A DNA stretch of 3,047 bases from Escherichia coli (GCF_003334335.1 NZ_QOWQ01000085.1), one strand, 5' to 3'. Positions 1-3,047 are shown, numbered from the stretch's first letter. Translations and numbers: made by a program. The notes: generated from the sequence alone by a model not told the origin.

Positions 1-53
1 TCCATAAATTAACCTTCATTTGATGCTGGATTGAACATATCAAAATCAGGCAA

Positions 54-443
54 TTACACAAATCTATGTACAGGCTCACGGGCAATTTTACGACGGCGTT
101 CACGCCATAACCCCTCTTCTATCATCCACTTTCTGAGAGTTTCAACGGATAAAGATAAACCGTGTATCTCGCGCAATTTTTCGCACGCAAACGTAGGTCC
201 AAAATCAGCGTAACGGCCTTTGAGGAGTGAAATTACTGTTGCTCTGAATTCAGTAGAAAAGGAATTATTAGGACGCTTTCCACGTCGGTGGGAAACCAGA
301 CCAGAAGGCCCTTCATTTCTATACCGTTGCACCAGACGTTTAACCTGCCGAATAGAAATGCCAATGCGTGCCGCAGCTTGTTCCTGAATAATCTGAAGTC
401 GGTGGAGTTCCTTATGACTCATCGTAACAGTCTCTTTGATCAT
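54..443 (-). CDS. N-terminal HTH DNA-binding portion of a transposase/integrase-family protein (129 aa); likely a truncated IS or transposon remnant
   Basis: ORF-track protein MIKETVTMSHKELHRLQ...IGISIRQVKRLVQRYRNEGPSGLVSHRRGKRPNN has a helix-turn-helix signature typical of N-termini of rve/DDE-type transposases. The ORF ends at TAA (54-56) about where a catalytic domain would begin, and the 53 nt beyond it do not continue the protein in any frame. Start ATG 443..441 is preceded by a GGGGGA Shine-Dalgarno-like motif. Confidence 0.55.
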   Translation of the reverse strand: MIKETVTMSHKELHRLQIIQEQAAARIGISIRQVKRLVQRYRNEGPSGLVSHRRGKRPNNSFSTEFRATVISLLKGRYADFGPTFACEKLREIHGLSLSVETLRKWMIEEGLWRERRRKIAREPVHRFV

Positions 444-471
444 GAAAAATCCCCCAGAGAATTGTCTGGGG
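444..471 (-). promoter_or_regulatory. Hairpin plus T-tract immediately 5' of the transposase start; terminator-like and RBS-sequestering
   Basis: Minus-strand RNA reads CCCCAGA-CAAUUC-UCUGGGG (perfect 7-bp stem, plus 452-458 paired with 465-471) followed by GAUUUUUC and then AUG. The Shine-Dalgarno-like G-run lies in the 3' arm of the stem. Confidence 0.4.
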
Positions 472-531
472 ACATTTTAGAATGGTTCAAAGGGGACATT
501 ACAGCTTGGTGTTAACAATAGCCTGCTTCTC

Positions 532-547
532 CGTGCCTTTCGGCACG
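532..547 (-). other. GC-rich hairpin with GAAA tetraloop on the minus-strand transcript
   Basis: Plus CGTGCC-TTTC-GGCACG; minus RNA CGUGCC-GAAA-GGCACG (6-bp stem, GNRA-type loop). No U-tract follows, so it is not a classic intrinsic terminator. Confidence 0.3.
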
Positions 548-592
548 TAAGAGGCTAACCTACATGTGTCTAGCATGAAATTGGCCTCAGAT

Positions 593-627
593 TAATGTTA
601 AGCGTCTTGCAGGACGCGTAATGTTAA
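593..627. repeat. 9-bp direct repeat TAATGTTAA (593-601 and 619-627) flanking a short hairpin (602-618)
   Basis: Read directly: TAATGTTAA, then GCGTCT-TGCAG-GGACGC (stem includes one G-U pair), then TAATGTTAA. Function unknown. Confidence 0.45.
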
Positions 628-640
628 CTGGGGCTTTTCT

Positions 641-676
641 CTATCTGCCGTTGGTGTCCATGCCCGAGGCAGATAG
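641..676. repeat. Perfect 9-bp inverted repeat (CTATCTGCC / GGCAGATAG) with an 18-nt spacer
   Basis: 641-649 CTATCTGCC pairs exactly with 668-676 GGCAGATAG. It lies in ORF-poor DNA downstream of the small membrane protein gene (minus-strand sense). Confidence 0.45.
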
Positions 677-777
677 CCTCAAGCACCCGCAGTCATTCTA
701 CTTAACTAAGATTTCCCCGCAAACCGTTTTTGTCCAGCACAGTAAATATCCAACTAAACCAATGGAGTTCGCTGTAT

Positions 778-957
778 TTACCGCCAGTATTCAATGCACA
801 TGACCGCCATGAACACCCCTAAAAAAAGGGCATTTATATATCCAAATATTAATATCAAAACATCAACTTTTTCCATATACCTTGCTGTGAAGATGATGGG
901 CATACATGATGCGAACAACCAGAACGCAACAAACAAAAACTGCAATGCGTTTTTCAT
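778..957 (-). CDS. Small hydrophobic membrane protein, 59 aa, two predicted transmembrane helices
   Basis: ATG at 957..955 is preceded by AGGAGG with 4-5 nt spacing (minus: GTAGGAGGAATAATG). Protein MKNALQFLFVAFWLFASCMPIIFTARYMEKVDVLILIFGYINALFLGVFMAVMCIEYWR has two ~20-residue hydrophobic stretches separated by the charged loop RYMEKVD. The ORF-track version (778..996) starts at an upstream GTG with no ribosome-binding site; the internal ATG is preferred. Confidence 0.55.
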   Translation of the reverse strand: MKNALQFLFVAFWLFASCMPIIFTARYMEKVDVLILIFGYINALFLGVFMAVMCIEYWR

Positions 958-1211
958 TATTCCTCCTACAATCAATGTGCAATTACATTTAAACACACCT
1001 CAATTTGGCCGGACATATAAATATCTAAACCAGAAAAAATCACTTACATAGCGTTACAAACTCTTTAGTCTAAAGGTTCATCGTAAAACATTCCCCATAC
1101 TTATCAGTCCGTTCCGCGCCAGGTAGCTCATTGCCTTATCTGGCAACCTGTAATCAGGTTTCCGCTTTTTCAGTTGGCTGGTCGTTTAACCGACATAGTT
1201 AATCCATTAAT

Positions 1212-1499
1212 CTAGTTGCCGGATGTTGGTGGATTTTCGCGTTTTAGTTGTTCATAAAAGTGCACAGCTTTAACCAGTTCTTCTGATGTAACTGGGACTG
1301 GTGAGGCAGTGAATAAGGCCTGAATTTGATAGTTCGGCCTGTCGTTACAATCCTCTTTTTTCGGTACATATTTCCAGTCACCAGACCACTACTTCCCCTG
1401 AAAGTCCGTAACGCCTTTTTTCACGTAGCGATATCGCCATGCCACTGGTTTTGCTTGCCCCGCCGTTTCATGCCCTTCCTGATAATTAATCTCGCTCAT
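1212..1499 (-). pseudogene. Small phage-like ORF (95 codons) interrupted by one in-frame TAG at 1391..1389
   Basis: Minus frame: MSEINYQEGHETAGQAKPVAWRYRYVKKGVTDFQGK-TAG-WSGDWKYVPKKEDCNDRPNYQIQALFTASPVPVTSEELVKAVHFYEQLKRENPPTSGN-TAG. Its ATG (1499..1497) overlaps the upstream gene's TGA as ATGA. Coding-like sequence continues in the same frame after the amber codon. Confidence 0.4.
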
Positions 1500-1687
1500 T
1501 CATCGCCCCACTCATCACAATATGCTTCGACCGGAGTTTTTCCCGCTTCATAGTCATCACGCTAGGATTCGACATCAGCAGCACTTCCACCGCGTAACTC
1601 ACCATAGTCCATTAATAGTTCATCCCGCTCTTCAAAACTGATGTTATATTTAGCTGAACAAAAATCAGCCACTTTGTTCTTCCTCAT
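1496..1687 (-). pseudogene. Small acidic ORF (63 codons) interrupted by one in-frame TAG at 1564..1562
   Basis: Minus frame: MRKNKVADFCSAKYNISFEERDELLMDYGELRGGSAADVES-TAG-RDDYEAGKTPVEAYCDEWGDE-TGA. The final TGA (1498..1496) overlaps the next gene's ATG, which argues that the post-amber segment is the true C-terminus. Confidence 0.4.
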
Positions 1688-1736
1688 CGTCTTTTATTTC
1701 GTGGTATGAGTAATTGCAGTAGTTAAAGAAAATTTC

Positions 1737-1847
1737 TTATGCTCCGTCATGAATTTCCTCAGGTGTTGCGTCATCGTCCACTTCGAATACATCCTCAAAA
1801 TCTCCACCAGCTATTCCCGTTTCAATAATAATTTTGAACTTTCGCAT
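1737..1847 (-). CDS. Very acidic small protein, 36 aa
   Basis: ATG 1847..1845; MRKFKIIIETGIAGGDFEDVFEVDDDATPEEIHDGA with 11 D/E against 3 K/R. An AGGAGG lies upstream, separated from the ATG by a stable hairpin. Confidence 0.35.
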   Translation of the reverse strand: MRKFKIIIETGIAGGDFEDVFEVDDDATPEEIHDGA

Positions 1848-1854
1848 TTCACTA

Positions 1855-1876
1855 CCGCCCTTTCGGGCGGCCTCCT
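1855..1876 (-). promoter_or_regulatory. Shine-Dalgarno AGGAGG followed by a GAAA-tetraloop hairpin, then 7 nt, then the ATG of the 36-aa ORF
   Basis: Minus RNA: AGGAGG (plus 1871-1876), then CCGCCC-GAAA-GGGCGG (plus 1855-1870, 6-bp all-GC stem), then UAGUGAA, then AUG (1847). The hairpin would bring the ribosome-binding site to a functional distance from the start codon when folded. Confidence 0.35.
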
Positions 1877-1932
1877 GATGTTCTGAGGGTGCAGAAATCC
1901 ATCCGGTTAAGGATTAAATTTTATTTACAGAA

Positions 1933-1950
1933 CTGAATTTAATTATTCAG
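1933..1950. promoter_or_regulatory. 18-bp near-palindrome CTGAAT-TTAATT-ATTCAG in an AT-rich intergenic region; operator-like
   Basis: The outer 6-bp arms are exact reverse complements (1933-1938 and 1945-1950). The site lies in the ~260-bp AT-rich gap between the methyltransferase stop and the small-ORF cluster, where a promoter for that cluster is expected. Confidence 0.25.
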
Positions 1951-1981
1951 ATATACGTATCTGTAGCCTTACGAATCTACT

Positions 1982-2031
1982 CACTGGATGCCTCTTTCAT
2001 AAAAATAATCCAGTGGGTTTTATCGTTTTTT
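1982..2031 (+). terminator. Plus-strand-oriented terminator-like hairpin followed by a T-tract
   Basis: CACTGGAT (1982-1989) pairs with ATCCAGTG (2008-2015), an 8-bp stem with an 18-nt loop, followed by GGTTTTATCGTTTTTT. On the minus strand no U-tract follows, so the orientation is plus. The large loop lowers confidence. Confidence 0.3.
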
Positions 2032-2109
2032 CCCTGTTCGTTGACAGATAACAGGTTTTCTGTCTGTCAGTGCCAGAATCTGGCTTACCGGTATTTGCGT
2101 TTCATTCCA

Positions 2110-2466
2110 TTAAAAAATCAGAACGCCGTGCGGCCTCAACACCCGAAAGGCTTCTTTAAATCTCTGTCGCGAATCATCACGCCAGGCATCTTTATTCAGC
2201 CGTCCATATTTCTTTCCCATCCAGGCGTTATCACCAACACTCTCAAGATGCGGAGGGTCTAATACAACCATCGAAAAAGATGCGTCTGCAAATGATAATG
2301 CACGAAAATCTGCGATAATGTCAGGGCTGATAATCAAGCGTCTCCCATTGCGTAATGTGTATCCTTCTTTTCTGATATCGCTGAATATCGCCCGTTCGTC
2401 AGACTTATCGAACCAGAACATGCGGCTGCCACAGCACATATCAAGAATGGTTGCCGGTGCACTCAC
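2110..2466 (-). CDS. SAM-dependent methyltransferase core (118 aa), probably a phage-type DNA methyltransferase, apparently lacking a normal N-terminus
   Basis: Protein contains a motif-I-like LDMCCGS near its start, a DPPH motif resembling motif IV (D/N-PP-Y/F/H) of amino-methyltransferases, and VLRPHGVL resembling the common LKPGG motif. The only in-frame start is a GTG that overlaps the upstream ORF's stop (GTGA); a stop lies 7 codons further upstream in this frame. Confidence 0.55.
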   Translation of the reverse strand: MSAPATILDMCCGSRMFWFDKSDERAIFSDIRKEGYTLRNGRRLIISPDIIADFRALSFADASFSMVVLDPPHLESVGDNAWMGKKYGRLNKDAWRDDSRQRFKEAFRVLRPHGVLIF

Positions 2467-2729
2467 TGCGCCACGTCCTGAAAATTACCCTGATAGAAAG
2501 CCAGTATGCGCTGCATAACTTCGCTCTTCCGGCACTCGCGACAGATTATGTTTAGGCGACTGTCGTAGCGACGTATTTCTCCGTCAGGTGATGACCAGAT
2601 AAGGTCCGGATCAACCACAGCAGGTTTCTTCACCTTTGCCCTCGAGAGTTTTTTGCGGGCGTTTTGCCAGTCCTTACGCGCCTGTTCAGAGGGGAATAAC
2701 CCGTATCCGGAGCTTAAGTTGCACGCCAT
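2463..2729 (-). CDS. Hypothetical 88-aa protein; possibly the N-terminal part of the adjacent methyltransferase separated by a frameshift
   Basis: ORF MACNLSS...DLIWSSPDGEIRRYDSRLNIICRECRKSEVMQRILAFYQGNFQDVAQ ends with a TGA that overlaps the GTG of the methyltransferase frame. There is no clear Shine-Dalgarno before ATG 2729. Codon usage is otherwise coding-like. Confidence 0.4.
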   Translation of the reverse strand: MACNLSSGYGLFPSEQARKDWQNARKKLSRAKVKKPAVVDPDLIWSSPDGEIRRYDSRLNIICRECRKSEVMQRILAFYQGNFQDVAQ

Positions 2730-2787
2730 CGGGTGGGTTAAGCATAAATGTATTCCTGGTGCTAAATGGCCCGAAATTCAGGCAGAG

Positions 2788-3047
2788 ATGCGCATCTGGA
2801 AAAAACGTCGCGAAGGTGAACGCAAGGAAACCGGAAAATACACGTCTGTTGTTGATCTCGCCCGCGCCAGAGCCAATCAACAGTACACTGAAAATTCAAC
2901 AGGAAAAATCAGCCCGGTCATTGCTGCCATTCATCGCGAATACAAGCAGACATGGAAAACACTGGATGACGAACTGGCCTACGCTCTCTGGCCTGGTGAT
3001 GTGGATGCCGGAAACATTGACGGCAGCATCCATCGCTGGGCAAAAAA
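2788..3047 (+). CDS. 5' part of a phage-like hypothetical protein; continues beyond the window end
   Basis: Frame 1 is open from 2569 to the window end. First ATG at 2788 gives MRIWKKRREGERKETGKYTSVVDLARARANQQYTENSTGKISPVIAAIHREYKQTWKTLDDELAYALWPGDVDAGNIDGSIHRWAK with E. coli-like codons (CGC, CTG, GCC, GAA). The exact start is uncertain, since coding-like sequence in this frame begins near 2740. Confidence 0.5.
   Translation, partial: MRIWKKRREGERKETGKYTSVVDLARARANQQYTENSTGKISPVIAAIHREYKQTWKTLDDELAYALWPGDVDAGNIDGSIHRWAK

What the first reader, a model, noticed from the sequence alone, without database searches (positions are those of the whole stretch)
54..471. Truncated transposase N-terminus with its ribosome-binding site buried in a terminator-like hairpin
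Seen in sequence: the ORF encodes only the DNA-binding HTH region (129 aa) and stops before any catalytic domain. Its start is immediately preceded by a 7-bp GC stem plus U-tract that contains the Shine-Dalgarno-like G-run. Established knowledge: several IS elements sequester the transposase ribosome-binding site in secondary structure so that read-through transcripts from outside are not translated, and IS remnants are common in decaying prophages. Inference: an IS or transposon fragment. A catalytically dead HTH-only fragment could still bind the element's ends, but that is speculative.
Basis: partly seen in the sequence, partly recalled or inferred. Interest (0 to 1): 0.3.

Follow-up and report, generated by a model that had tools for sequence, protein, structure and literature searches.

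The report
Truncated transposase of a hok-targeting transposon
The 129-codon ORF is the decapitated transposase gene of an IS1202-family (ISEsa1-like) mobile element: ordinary as a pseudogene, but the element sits exactly on the start codon of the prophage toxin gene hokD, and in intact relatives it carries the classic relBE toxin-antitoxin genes.

Summary
ORF 54-443 (- strand, 129 aa) holds only the N-terminal HTH region of a transposase. Residues 1-122 are 100% identical to a 454-aa E. coli ISNCY/ISEsa1-family transposase. The last 7 codons and the stop come from the terminal repeat of an IS1414 copy that abuts it at 77/78.

The 7-8 bp hairpin (451-472) with the G-run and T-tract directly before the ATG is real. 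A CCCC:GGGG-cored version recurs in 17 of 19 distinct relatives.

The RNA function remains inferred.

Bases 444-517 are the element's left end: a 26-bp terminal repeat starting 5'-TGT, plus a second transposase-binding repeat. It abuts an orphan hok mRNA leader/sok (518-688, Rfam 104 bits), exactly at the hok start codon.

In intact relatives the same 15-bp sequence, GGAGAAGCAGGCTAT, recurs 3.27 kb away in front of hokD, after a right terminal repeat. The element carries flxA, ydfV and relBE. Uninterrupted hokD loci exist in about 4000 E. coli genomes.

Sister elements of 1.4-9.9 kb sit at the same position in other hok loci and in a Salmonella ldr locus. I found no description of this targeting.

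The parts
1..77 (-). End of an IS1414 copy (IS256 family). The transposase ATG is at 5-3 on the - strand. The terminal inverted repeat runs to the exact terminus at base 77 (outside-in: GAGCCTGTACATAGATTTGTGTAATTG).
   Evidence: Bases 1-77 are 100% identical to the ends of two IS1414 copies in NZ_CM136999. In L002 that copy has 19/27 terminal repeats and an 8-bp duplication, AGTGACAG.
54..443 (-). Chimeric 129-codon ORF. Bases 443-78 are codons 1-122 of an ISEsa1-like (IS1202 family) transposase, the HTH region only. Bases 77-54 give 7 codons (EPVHRFV) plus TAA, read from the IS1414 terminal repeat.
   Evidence: 122/122 residues are identical to P0005, 454 aa. Other genomes match the window only from base 78 on.
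451..472 (-). Hairpin: CCCCAGA (471-465), loop CAATTC, TCTGGGG (458-452), plus a 472.451 wobble. The Shine-Dalgarno-like GGGGGA (455-450) lies in the 3' arm. The T-tract 449-445 follows and the ATG is at 443.
468..486 (-). Inner (second) candidate transposase-binding repeat, ACCATTCTAAAATGTCCCC. Its last bases form the 5' arm of the hairpin.
   Evidence: It is a direct repeat of 492-510 (family D11). It is conserved nearly base for base in distant gammaproteobacterial relatives. An internal second site is a stated feature of the IS1202 family (PMC10132070).
492..517 (-). Left terminal inverted repeat of the element, TGTTAACACCAAGCTGTAATGTCCCC, with the outer end 5'-TGT at 517-515.
   Evidence: The junction is the same in every copy examined. 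It pairs with right ends GGTGACACTTCTGCTTTGCGTTGACA (E. coli) and GGGGACATTTCTGCTTTGCGTTGACA (Salmonella).
518..532 (-). Left copy of the 15-bp target duplication, GGAGAAGCAGGCTAT. This is the Shine-Dalgarno through 'AT' of the hokD start codon.
   Evidence: The second copy lies directly before hokD in L034, L001 and K-12. The reconstructed empty site is present at 99.6% identity in one piece in thousands of E. coli genomes.
518..688 (-). Orphan 5' leader of a hokD-type hok mRNA, which also holds the antisense sok region. It reads toward the transposase ORF. A promoter-like -35 TTGCGG (717-722) and -10 TAGAAT (695-700) lie just upstream; this is my own reading and falls below the scan threshold.
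   Evidence: Rfam RF01794 at 104.1 bits (gathering score 59), E 7e-24, over 688->517. The model ends at the hok AUG.

Best explanation
The ORF is the first 122 codons of the transposase gene of an ISEsa1-like element (IS1202 family, TnsB-like DDE transposase). It is cut off at window base 77/78 by the end of an IS1414 copy, whose terminal repeat supplies 7 junk codons and the stop.

Bases 444-517 are the element's intact left end. They hold a 26-bp terminal repeat beginning 5'-TGT and a second 19-bp transposase-binding repeat. Next comes a hairpin whose 5' arm is the CCCC end of that repeat and whose 3' arm is the G-rich Shine-Dalgarno sequence.

The element had transposed into a prophage hokD locus. 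It landed between the hok leader/sok region, which is still in the window at 518-688, and the hokD ORF. It duplicated the 15 bp from the Shine-Dalgarno to the 'AT' of the start codon. In intact relatives the element is 3.27 kb long and carries flxA, ydfV and relBE before its right end next to hokD.

These steps are shown: the element's identity, the truncation, the end architecture, the insertion site and its duplication, and conservation of the hairpin.

This step is inferred. The element always lands just downstream of a toxin promoter, in the same orientation. In transcripts entering from outside, the hairpin pairs the ribosome-binding site and so keeps transposase translation low. In the enterobacterial lineage, with its U-tract, it may also terminate those transcripts. 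This works like the read-through protection of IS10 and IS50. In this window the gene is dead, so the hairpin is a relic.
For: Identity and truncation. IS1414 junction.

Left end and repeats. Family features come from PMC10132070.

hok leader.

Target duplication and right end. Empty site.

Hairpin. With the hok leader attached, the fold keeps the hairpin and buries the SD and AUG, z = -4.1. Comparable hairpins of -8 to -17 kcal/mol occur in 23 of 25 left-end sequences. The CCCC:GGGG core occurs in 17 of 19 variants. The inner pairs differ between lineages: AGA/TCT in E. coli, G/C in Klebsiella, UG/CG in Salmonella and UUUUG/CGGGA in distant relatives.
Against: Both hairpin arms are constrained for other reasons: CCCC by transposase binding, the G-run as a Shine-Dalgarno. 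Conservation of the core is therefore weak proof of an RNA role. The inner-pair test is only modest (p about 0.03 in the window, 0.03-1.0 across lineages).

The Kosakonia lineage lacks the hairpin. A MAFFT/RNAalifold consensus found no structure because the 3' arms do not align.

No sigma-70-like promoter reached the scan threshold, so the native transcript start relative to the hairpin is unknown.

Whether the rest of the transposase gene lies beyond IS1414 cannot be seen from the window.
Confidence: 0.75

Rival explanations
1. The hairpin plus T-tract acts mainly as an intrinsic transcription terminator. It stops transcripts from the hok (or other outside) promoter before they enter the transposase gene, rather than masking the ribosome-binding site.
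For: It fits the terminator consensus: 8 pairs, 5 G-C, tail ATTTTTC. T-rich tails are kept in the E. coli, Klebsiella, Mixta and Kosakonia lineages. The hok promoter and leader read straight into it.
Against: Salmonella and all non-enterobacterial relatives keep the hairpin but have no T-tract. In the window the T-tract pairs with the upstream AAAAU in the predicted fold. The stem is short. A terminator 1 nt before the start codon would also stop any native transcript that starts upstream of it.
Confidence: 0.3
2. The hairpin has no RNA function. The complementarity is a by-product of a transposase-binding repeat ending in CCCC lying next to a G-rich Shine-Dalgarno. Alternatively it is a DNA-level palindrome, that is a degenerate third binding site in inverted orientation. 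That site would serve as an operator through which the transposase represses its own gene, as TnsB does at the Tn7 right end (recalled from memory).
For: Inverted repeat I12 (445-461 / 462-478, 76% complementary, no gap between the arms) includes the AAAAT/ATTTT parts of the binding motif. Both arms are explained by other constraints. Covariation support is only modest.
Against: The putative third site lacks the conserved ACA of the GGKGACAYYT core. Distant relatives have the hairpin but nothing resembling an inverted site. Runs of four or more G as a Shine-Dalgarno are unusual, yet they recur across lineages whose loops differ.
Confidence: 0.25
3. The 129-aa HTH protein is a retained, functional stand-alone DNA-binding protein, for example an inhibitor or regulator that binds the element's ends, rather than junk.
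For: It keeps an intact start, Shine-Dalgarno and HTH domains, and it lies next to two binding repeats. Truncated N-terminal transposase products act as inhibitors in other IS families (established knowledge).
Against: Its C-terminus is an accident of an IS1414 end. No complete E. coli genome in the collection shares this junction, so it is recent and strain-specific. The lineage also carries an in-frame 9-aa deletion beside the first HTH. In most genomes the gene is already a pseudogene. No right end or active partner element is visible in the window.
Confidence: 0.08

Closest known systems
ISEsa1 and the IS1202 family (ISfinder; Harmer & Hall 2023, PMC10132070)
   Same: PGAP names close copies 'IS1202-like element ISEsa1 family transposase'. 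The ends are 5'-TGT...ACA-3', the terminal repeats are about 26 bp, there is an extra internal binding site at each end, and the transposase is large (about 440-450 aa) with N-terminal HTH domains.
   Different: ISEsa1 is listed as 1609 bp with no detectable target duplication. Here the ends lie 1.45-9.9 kb apart with a 15-16 bp duplication, and the longer forms carry cargo: relBE, flxA, ydfV, metal-resistance genes and an ars operon. The window holds only the left end and 27% of the gene.
ISAjo2/ISAba71 group of the IS1202 family (dif/pdif-targeting)
   Same: They belong to the same family and are site- and orientation-specific, inserting at a fixed distance from a recognisable short target.
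   Different: Their target is the XerC side of dif sites with a 5-bp duplication. Here the target is the translation start of type I toxin genes (hok, ldr) with a 15-16 bp duplication.
Tn7 and its TnsB ends
   Same: The transposase is TnsB-like, the termini are TGT/ACA with multiple binding repeats at each end, and the element carries cargo and inserts site-specifically (PMC10132070).
   Different: No TnsA, TnsC, TnsD or TniQ genes are present. A sequence search found no match to any solved structure.
Read-through protection in IS10 and IS50 (ribosome-binding site sequestered in transcripts entering from outside; recalled from the literature, not re-read here)
   Same: A stem formed between element-end sequence and the Shine-Dalgarno lies just upstream of the transposase start codon.
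   Different: The families are unrelated. The position of the native promoter relative to the stem is not established here. The enterobacterial lineage adds a T-tract.
Chromosomal hok loci of E. coli K-12 inactivated by IS elements or rearrangement (Pedersen & Gerdes 1999; recalled from memory, not in the searchable library)
   Same: This too is a hok locus separated from its regulatory elements by a mobile element. hokD (relF) in K-12 lacks sok and its leader.
   Different: The disrupting element here is a single IS1202-family transposon sitting exactly at the start codon, and it brings relBE with it. K-12 keeps only its right part: the right repeat, the 15-bp copy and hokD.

Membership tests
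IS1202 family (ISEsa1-like) | Transposase homologous to the family's large TnsB-like DDE transposase (394-507 aa) | tested here: met
   The window ORF matches NF033594 positions 7-113 (E 6e-33). It is 100% identical over 122 aa to a 454-aa protein that scores 456 bits against a 250-bit cut-off. PGAP labels the 94%-identical copies ISEsa1 family.
IS1202 family (ISEsa1-like) | Catalytic integrase-core (DDE) domain present in this copy | tested here: not met
   The ORF ends at residue 122 of the transposase. The rve region lies at about 154-291 in full-length relatives. This copy is a fragment. The DDE(Q) motif itself was not inspected.
IS1202 family (ISEsa1-like) | Terminal inverted repeats of about 24-26 bp with outer ends 5'-TGT / ACA-3' | tested here: met
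   The left repeat is at 492-517 and starts TGT. The matching right repeats ending ACA are in L034, K-12, L157, L158 and L015. The right end is outside the window.
IS1202 family (ISEsa1-like) | Additional internal transposase-binding repeat near each end | tested here: met
   468-486 repeats 492-510. Two GGGGACAYTT sites are seen at intact right ends. Binding itself was not tested.
IS1202 family (ISEsa1-like) | Characteristic target duplication (family subgroups: 3-5, 16-17 or 27-28 bp; none reported for ISEsa1) | tested here: met
   Duplications of 15-16 bp flank intact relatives. The window holds the left copy at 518-532.
[quoted passage not shown] | hok mRNA leader / sok region recognised by the Rfam covariance model | tested here: met
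   RF01794 at 104.1 bits against a gathering score of 59.
[quoted passage not shown] | Hok toxin ORF following the leader | tested here: not met
   The model's AUG position reads AUU and is followed by the element's TGTTAAC end. There is no Hok-like ORF in the window. In relatives hokD lies 3.27 kb further on.
Intrinsic (Rho-independent) terminator | G+C-rich stem-loop followed by a U-tract | tested here: inconclusive
   It matches the consensus scan. However, the scan found 2 sites against 1.2 expected by chance, the tail is lost in several relatives, and termination cannot be measured here.
Ribosome-binding-site sequestration against read-through (IS10/IS50-like) | Shine-Dalgarno inside a stem whose 5' arm is present only in transcripts that start outside the element or upstream of the native start | tested here: inconclusive
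   The Shine-Dalgarno lies in the 3' arm. No promoter reached the threshold, so the native start is unknown.

The most novel reading that the evidence does not exclude
ISEsa1-type elements are not plain insertion sequences. They are a family of cargo-carrying, TnsB-like transposons that insert site- and orientation-specifically at the translation start (Shine-Dalgarno to ATG) of type I toxin genes (hok, ldr). This uncouples the toxin ORF from its leader and antisense control.

On this reading the textbook E. coli K-12 relBE(-hokD/relF) 'operon' is the right-hand cargo of such a transposon plus its target gene. This would explain why hokD lacks sok, mok and its leader in K-12.
Probability: 0.65. 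Interest if true: 0.65.

Novelty: new variant of a known kind. Interest (0 to 1): 0.45.

Why it matters
As stated, the finding is routine: a dead IS gene in a decaying prophage.

The context is what matters. It gives an exact occupied site, an empty site and the duplication for an IS1202-family element whose target duplication and true ends were reported as undetectable. It points to a second kind of target specificity in that family, type I toxin start codons, besides dif sites. It also suggests that relBE, one of the most studied toxin-antitoxin loci, travels as transposon cargo between prophages and large conjugative plasmids (658 plasmids carry the left end).

It also gives a concrete reason for a read-through-blocking hairpin. 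The element habitually lands behind a toxin promoter.

Tried and rejected
- **Consensus folding.** MAFFT plus RNAalifold on 19 left-end variants gave no consensus structure, because the variable loops misalign the 3' arms. I replaced it with per-sequence folding and an inner-pair shuffle test.
- **Second copy of the flank.** A search within 1.2-2.6 kb of the left end failed for all E. coli, Klebsiella and Kosakonia copies. It first looked as if the right ends had been lost. Widening the search found them at 3.27, 3.30, 6.09 and 9.92 kb.
- **Short inverted repeats.** An early reading took short inverted repeats near ydfW as the right end. I rejected it.
- **The exact IS1414/transposase junction.** No complete E. 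coli genome carries it.
- **Solved structures.** A sequence search with the full-length transposase found nothing.
- **Sigma-70 promoter scan of 1-1300.** It found no site. TTGAAC-N18-GACAAT inside the left end and TTGCGG-N16-TAGAAT before the hok leader are my own sub-threshold readings.
- **Stand-alone HTH regulator.** Considered and rejected (see rivals).
- **Spread by homologous recombination.** I asked whether the hok association could come from recombination rather than transposition. I rejected this as the sole explanation. The duplicated 15-mers differ between loci, but the two copies match within each locus where both survive intact (hokD, the two plasmids and ldr); in Kosakonia only 12 bp are shared and the right copy is degenerate.
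- **Literature.** Searches for IS1202/ISNCY together with hok, relBE or hokD found no description of this arrangement.

Full report
**What is in the sequence**

The window is a variant of the E. coli Qin cryptic prophage. Bases 78-3047 are 99.9-100% identical to hundreds of E. coli chromosomes. In those chromosomes, PGAP annotates a 1044-nt pseudogene at this place, 'ISNCY family transposase, missing C-terminus'. It lies between ydfW/flxA/relBE/hokD on one side and decayed phage genes on the other.

The ORF named in the finding runs on the - strand from ATG 443 to stop 56-54, 129 aa. Pfam sees only HTH domains, at residues 20-107. NCBIfam aligns it to positions 7-113 of the 368-position ISNCY transposase model, at 114.5 bits against a cut-off of 250. 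Full-length relatives are 430-454 aa. They pass that cut-off at 456-462 bits and have the integrase-core region at about residues 154-291. Residues 1-122 of the ORF are 100% identical to residues 1-122 of an intact 454-aa E. coli protein. Compared with most relatives, this lineage also lacks 9 residues (SLNRHITQE) next to the first HTH.

**Why it is truncated**

Other genomes match the window only from base 78 onward. Bases 1-77 are identical to the end of IS1414 (IS256 family). The IS1414 transposase ATG lies at window 5-3 on the - strand. In NZ_CM136999 an IS1414 copy with this same end has 19/27 terminal repeats and an 8-bp duplication, which fixes the terminus at window base 77.

The last seven codons (EPVHRFV) and the TAA are therefore read from the IS1414 terminal repeat, and the ORF is a chimera. 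No complete E. coli genome in the collection has this junction. In NZ_CM136999, the best overall match, the same IS1414 end in the same orientation lies 1385 bp further out. An IS1414-mediated adjacent deletion is therefore a simple explanation. This is an inference, and the window cannot decide it.

**The hairpin**

On the - strand, CCCCAGA (471-465) pairs with TCTGGGG (458-452) across a 6-nt loop, with a 472.451 wobble. ATTTTTC follows, and then the ATG. The G-run GGGGGA (455-450) is the only Shine-Dalgarno-like sequence at the right distance from the start codon.

Folding gives about -13 to -14.5 kcal/mol, z = -2.35. With the upstream hok leader attached, the stem is kept. It extends through AAAAU/AUUUU and buries the AUG, z = -4.1.

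A single terminator-like hit is within chance expectation: 2 found against 1.2 +/- 1.1. I therefore looked at relatives. Among 25 distinct left ends from Enterobacterales and distant sulfur-oxidising gammaproteobacteria, 23 fold into a hairpin of -8 to -17 kcal/mol between the CCCC that ends the inner repeat and a G-run just before the start codon. The loops and inner pairs differ by lineage: AGA/TCT, G/C, UG/CG and UUUUG/CGGGA. Holding CCCC and GGGG fixed and shuffling the bases between them gives p about 0.03 for the window's three inner pairs, with mixed values elsewhere.

The hairpin is therefore a real, conserved feature. The evidence that it works as RNA is moderate, because both arms are also constrained by other functions.

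**The element's end**

Bases 517-492 (- strand) read TGTTAACACCAAGCTGTAATGTCCCC. Bases 486-468 repeat the inner 19 nt, ACCATTCTAAAATGTCCCC. The same two-repeat architecture is almost invariant in relatives that are only 62-65% identical in protein. In those relatives many intact copies show right ends ...GGGGACATTTTAGAATTGGGTTGACA and 14-16 bp target duplications.

Harmer & Hall (PMC10132070) describe these features for the IS1202 family:
- TGT/ACA termini;
- terminal repeats of about 26 bp;
- an extra internal binding site at each end;
- a TnsB-like transposase.

PGAP labels the 94%-identical copies 'IS1202-like element ISEsa1 family'.

**What lies upstream, and why it matters**

Rfam places the 'sok' model RF01794 on the - strand at 688-517, at 104 bits. 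That model spans the hok mRNA leader from its 5' end to the hok AUG. In the window, the AUG position is exactly where the element's TGT begins.

The same abutment is found with different hok leaders:
- an E. coli IncHI2-type plasmid;
- a Klebsiella locus, seen on a chromosomal-size contig and on a plasmid;
- Kosakonia;
- an Enterobacter IncF plasmid;
- another Enterobacter plasmid.

It is also found with an ldr/rdlD leader in Salmonella.

The Salmonella copy is a plain 1447-bp IS flanked by (A)CAAGGCGGCTATATG, with the Ldr ORF intact right after it.

In E. coli with an intact transposase (L034), the left flank GGAGAAGCAGGCTAT recurs 3273 bp downstream. There it directly follows the right repeat GGTGACACTTCTGCTTTGCGTTGACA and directly precedes the G of the hokD ATG. 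Between the two ends lie the transposase gene, flxA, ydfV, relB and relE; ydfW is the C-terminal remnant of the transposase gene.

Three other elements have matching duplications at a hok start:
- an IncF plasmid: 3300 bp, with identical RelB, RelE and YdfV proteins;
- an IncHI2 plasmid: 6092 bp, with extra metal-transport cargo;
- the Kosakonia chromosome: 9923 bp, with a parDE-like pair, gnsAB and an ars operon. Here only 12 bp are shared and the right copy is degenerate.

The duplicated 15-mers differ between loci. The two copies match within each locus in hokD, the two plasmids and ldr, which argues for independent transposition events rather than spread by recombination.

A synthetic 'empty site', with the leader joined to hokD through a single 15-mer, is present at 99.6% identity in one piece in about 4000 E. 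coli genomes. It is annotated hokD and sits in the same kind of lambdoid prophage position. K-12 MG1655 keeps only the right part of the element: the right repeat, the 15-mer and hokD.

Two left-flank contexts, Enterobacter sp. Ag1 and Mixta/Acinetobacter, are not recognisable toxin leaders, and no duplication was found there. Distant relatives insert at varied sites. The toxin-start preference therefore seems to belong to the enterobacterial clade.

**How it most likely works**

Shown:
- the ORF is a dead, chimeric 5' fragment of an ISEsa1-type transposase gene;
- its upstream 74 nt are the element's left end;
- the element sits in the hokD translation start and reads in the same direction as the hok promoter and leader.

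Inferred:
- in a live element, transcripts entering from the toxin promoter contain both arms of the hairpin;
- the Shine-Dalgarno, and in the extended fold the AUG, are then paired and the transposase is not translated;
- in the enterobacterial lineage the added T-tract may also terminate such transcripts;
- native transcripts may start within or after the 5' arm, but no convincing promoter was found.

Two rivals cannot be excluded. One is a pure terminator. The other is a structure with no RNA role, either a by-product of the binding site plus a G-rich Shine-Dalgarno or a DNA operator. A role for the 129-aa product itself is unlikely, given its accidental C-terminus and strain-specific junction.

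**Comparison and novelty**

As a truncated IS gene, the finding is ordinary and already annotated as such in sister genomes. The surrounding anatomy is not described in the literature I could search. ISEsa1 is listed there as 1609 bp with no detectable duplication.

Here the true ends, a 15-16 bp duplication, variable cargo including relBE, and a repeated, oriented insertion at type I toxin start codons are documented by sequence comparison. This is a new variant within a known family. The transposition specificity still needs an experiment.

**Rest of the window**

The remainder is decaying lambdoid prophage. It holds a DNA methyltransferase fragment (2110-2466, - strand), a DUF977/Ren-like fragment (2463-2729, - strand) fused head-on to a RecE-type exonuclease fragment (2695-3047, + strand), and interrupted small ORFs.

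Noticed in passing
window 518-688 (- strand): An orphan hokD-type hok mRNA leader with the sok antisense region (Rfam RF01794, 104 bits) and no hok ORF after it. It is the regulatory half of hokD that K-12 lacks. A mok-like frame starting at ATG 574-572 would read across the junction into the element's end and stop at TAA 499-497 (25 codons; my own reading, not checked with a tool).
   Followed up: yes
L034 2427-5699; L162 (K-12 MG1655, NC_000913.3 1644500-1649500); L157; L158: relB-relE, with flxA and ydfV, lie inside a 3.27-kb ISEsa1-ended element. Its right repeat and a 15-bp duplication abut hokD. The same element, with identical RelB and RelE proteins, is on IncF and IncHI2 plasmids of Enterobacter and Citrobacter at other hok loci. 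K-12 retains the right part only.
   Followed up: yes
L015 1927-3373 (Salmonella enterica CP019410): A plain 1447-bp copy of the IS sits between the ldr leader/rdlD antisense gene and an intact Ldr toxin ORF, duplicating (A)CAAGGCGGCTATATG. This is a second, unrelated type I toxin family hit at its start codon.
   Followed up: partly
L155 8927-18849 (Kosakonia sp., JAENHT010000002): A 9.9-kb version of the element carries a RelE/ParE-type pair, gnsAB, an arsRDABC operon and an IS110-family insertion. It is again bounded by a hok leader on the left and a Hok ORF on the right.
   Followed up: partly
window 1-77 and L002 2763-4077: The IS1414 end abuts the transposase fragment. In NZ_CM136999 the same end, in the same orientation, lies 1385 bp further out (between flxA and ydfW). 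This suggests an IS1414-mediated adjacent deletion in the window's strain.
   Followed up: partly
window 382-392 versus L003 4316-4331 / L005: The window lineage has a 27-bp in-frame deletion in the transposase N-terminus (residues SLNRHITQE), flanked by an 11-bp repeat. The deletion is also present in the otherwise intact 454-aa allele.
   Followed up: partly
L166-L169, L160, L006/L156, L158 (plasmids and Klebsiella): IS3-family elements (ISKpn38, ISKpn8) are repeatedly inserted in or just outside the left terminal repeat of the ISEsa1-type element, in both orientations. This may be a hotspot.
   Followed up: no
L159 (Acinetobacter venetianus plasmid CP060163) and L087 (Mixta sp.): Both share the same non-hok left flank. 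In the Acinetobacter plasmid the left end is followed within about 300 bp by relBE with no transposase gene, which looks like a deletion derivative. No duplication was found.
   Followed up: no
window 778-957 (- strand): A 59-aa strongly hydrophobic ORF (MKNALQFLFVAFWLF...) lies just upstream of the hok promoter region. It has no PHROG match, is unannotated by PGAP in L001, but is called as a gene in L034.
   Followed up: partly
window 2463-2729 (-) / 2695-3047 (+): A DUF977/Ren-like gene fragment lies head-to-head and overlapping with a RecE-type exonuclease fragment. This is a deletion scar of the prophage. L003 shows a further deletion joining 546 to 2519.
   Followed up: partly
window 1145-1170 (+ strand): A second terminator-like site (AACCTGTAATCAGGTT followed by TCCGCTTTTT) lies in non-coding or pseudogene sequence.
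   Followed up: no
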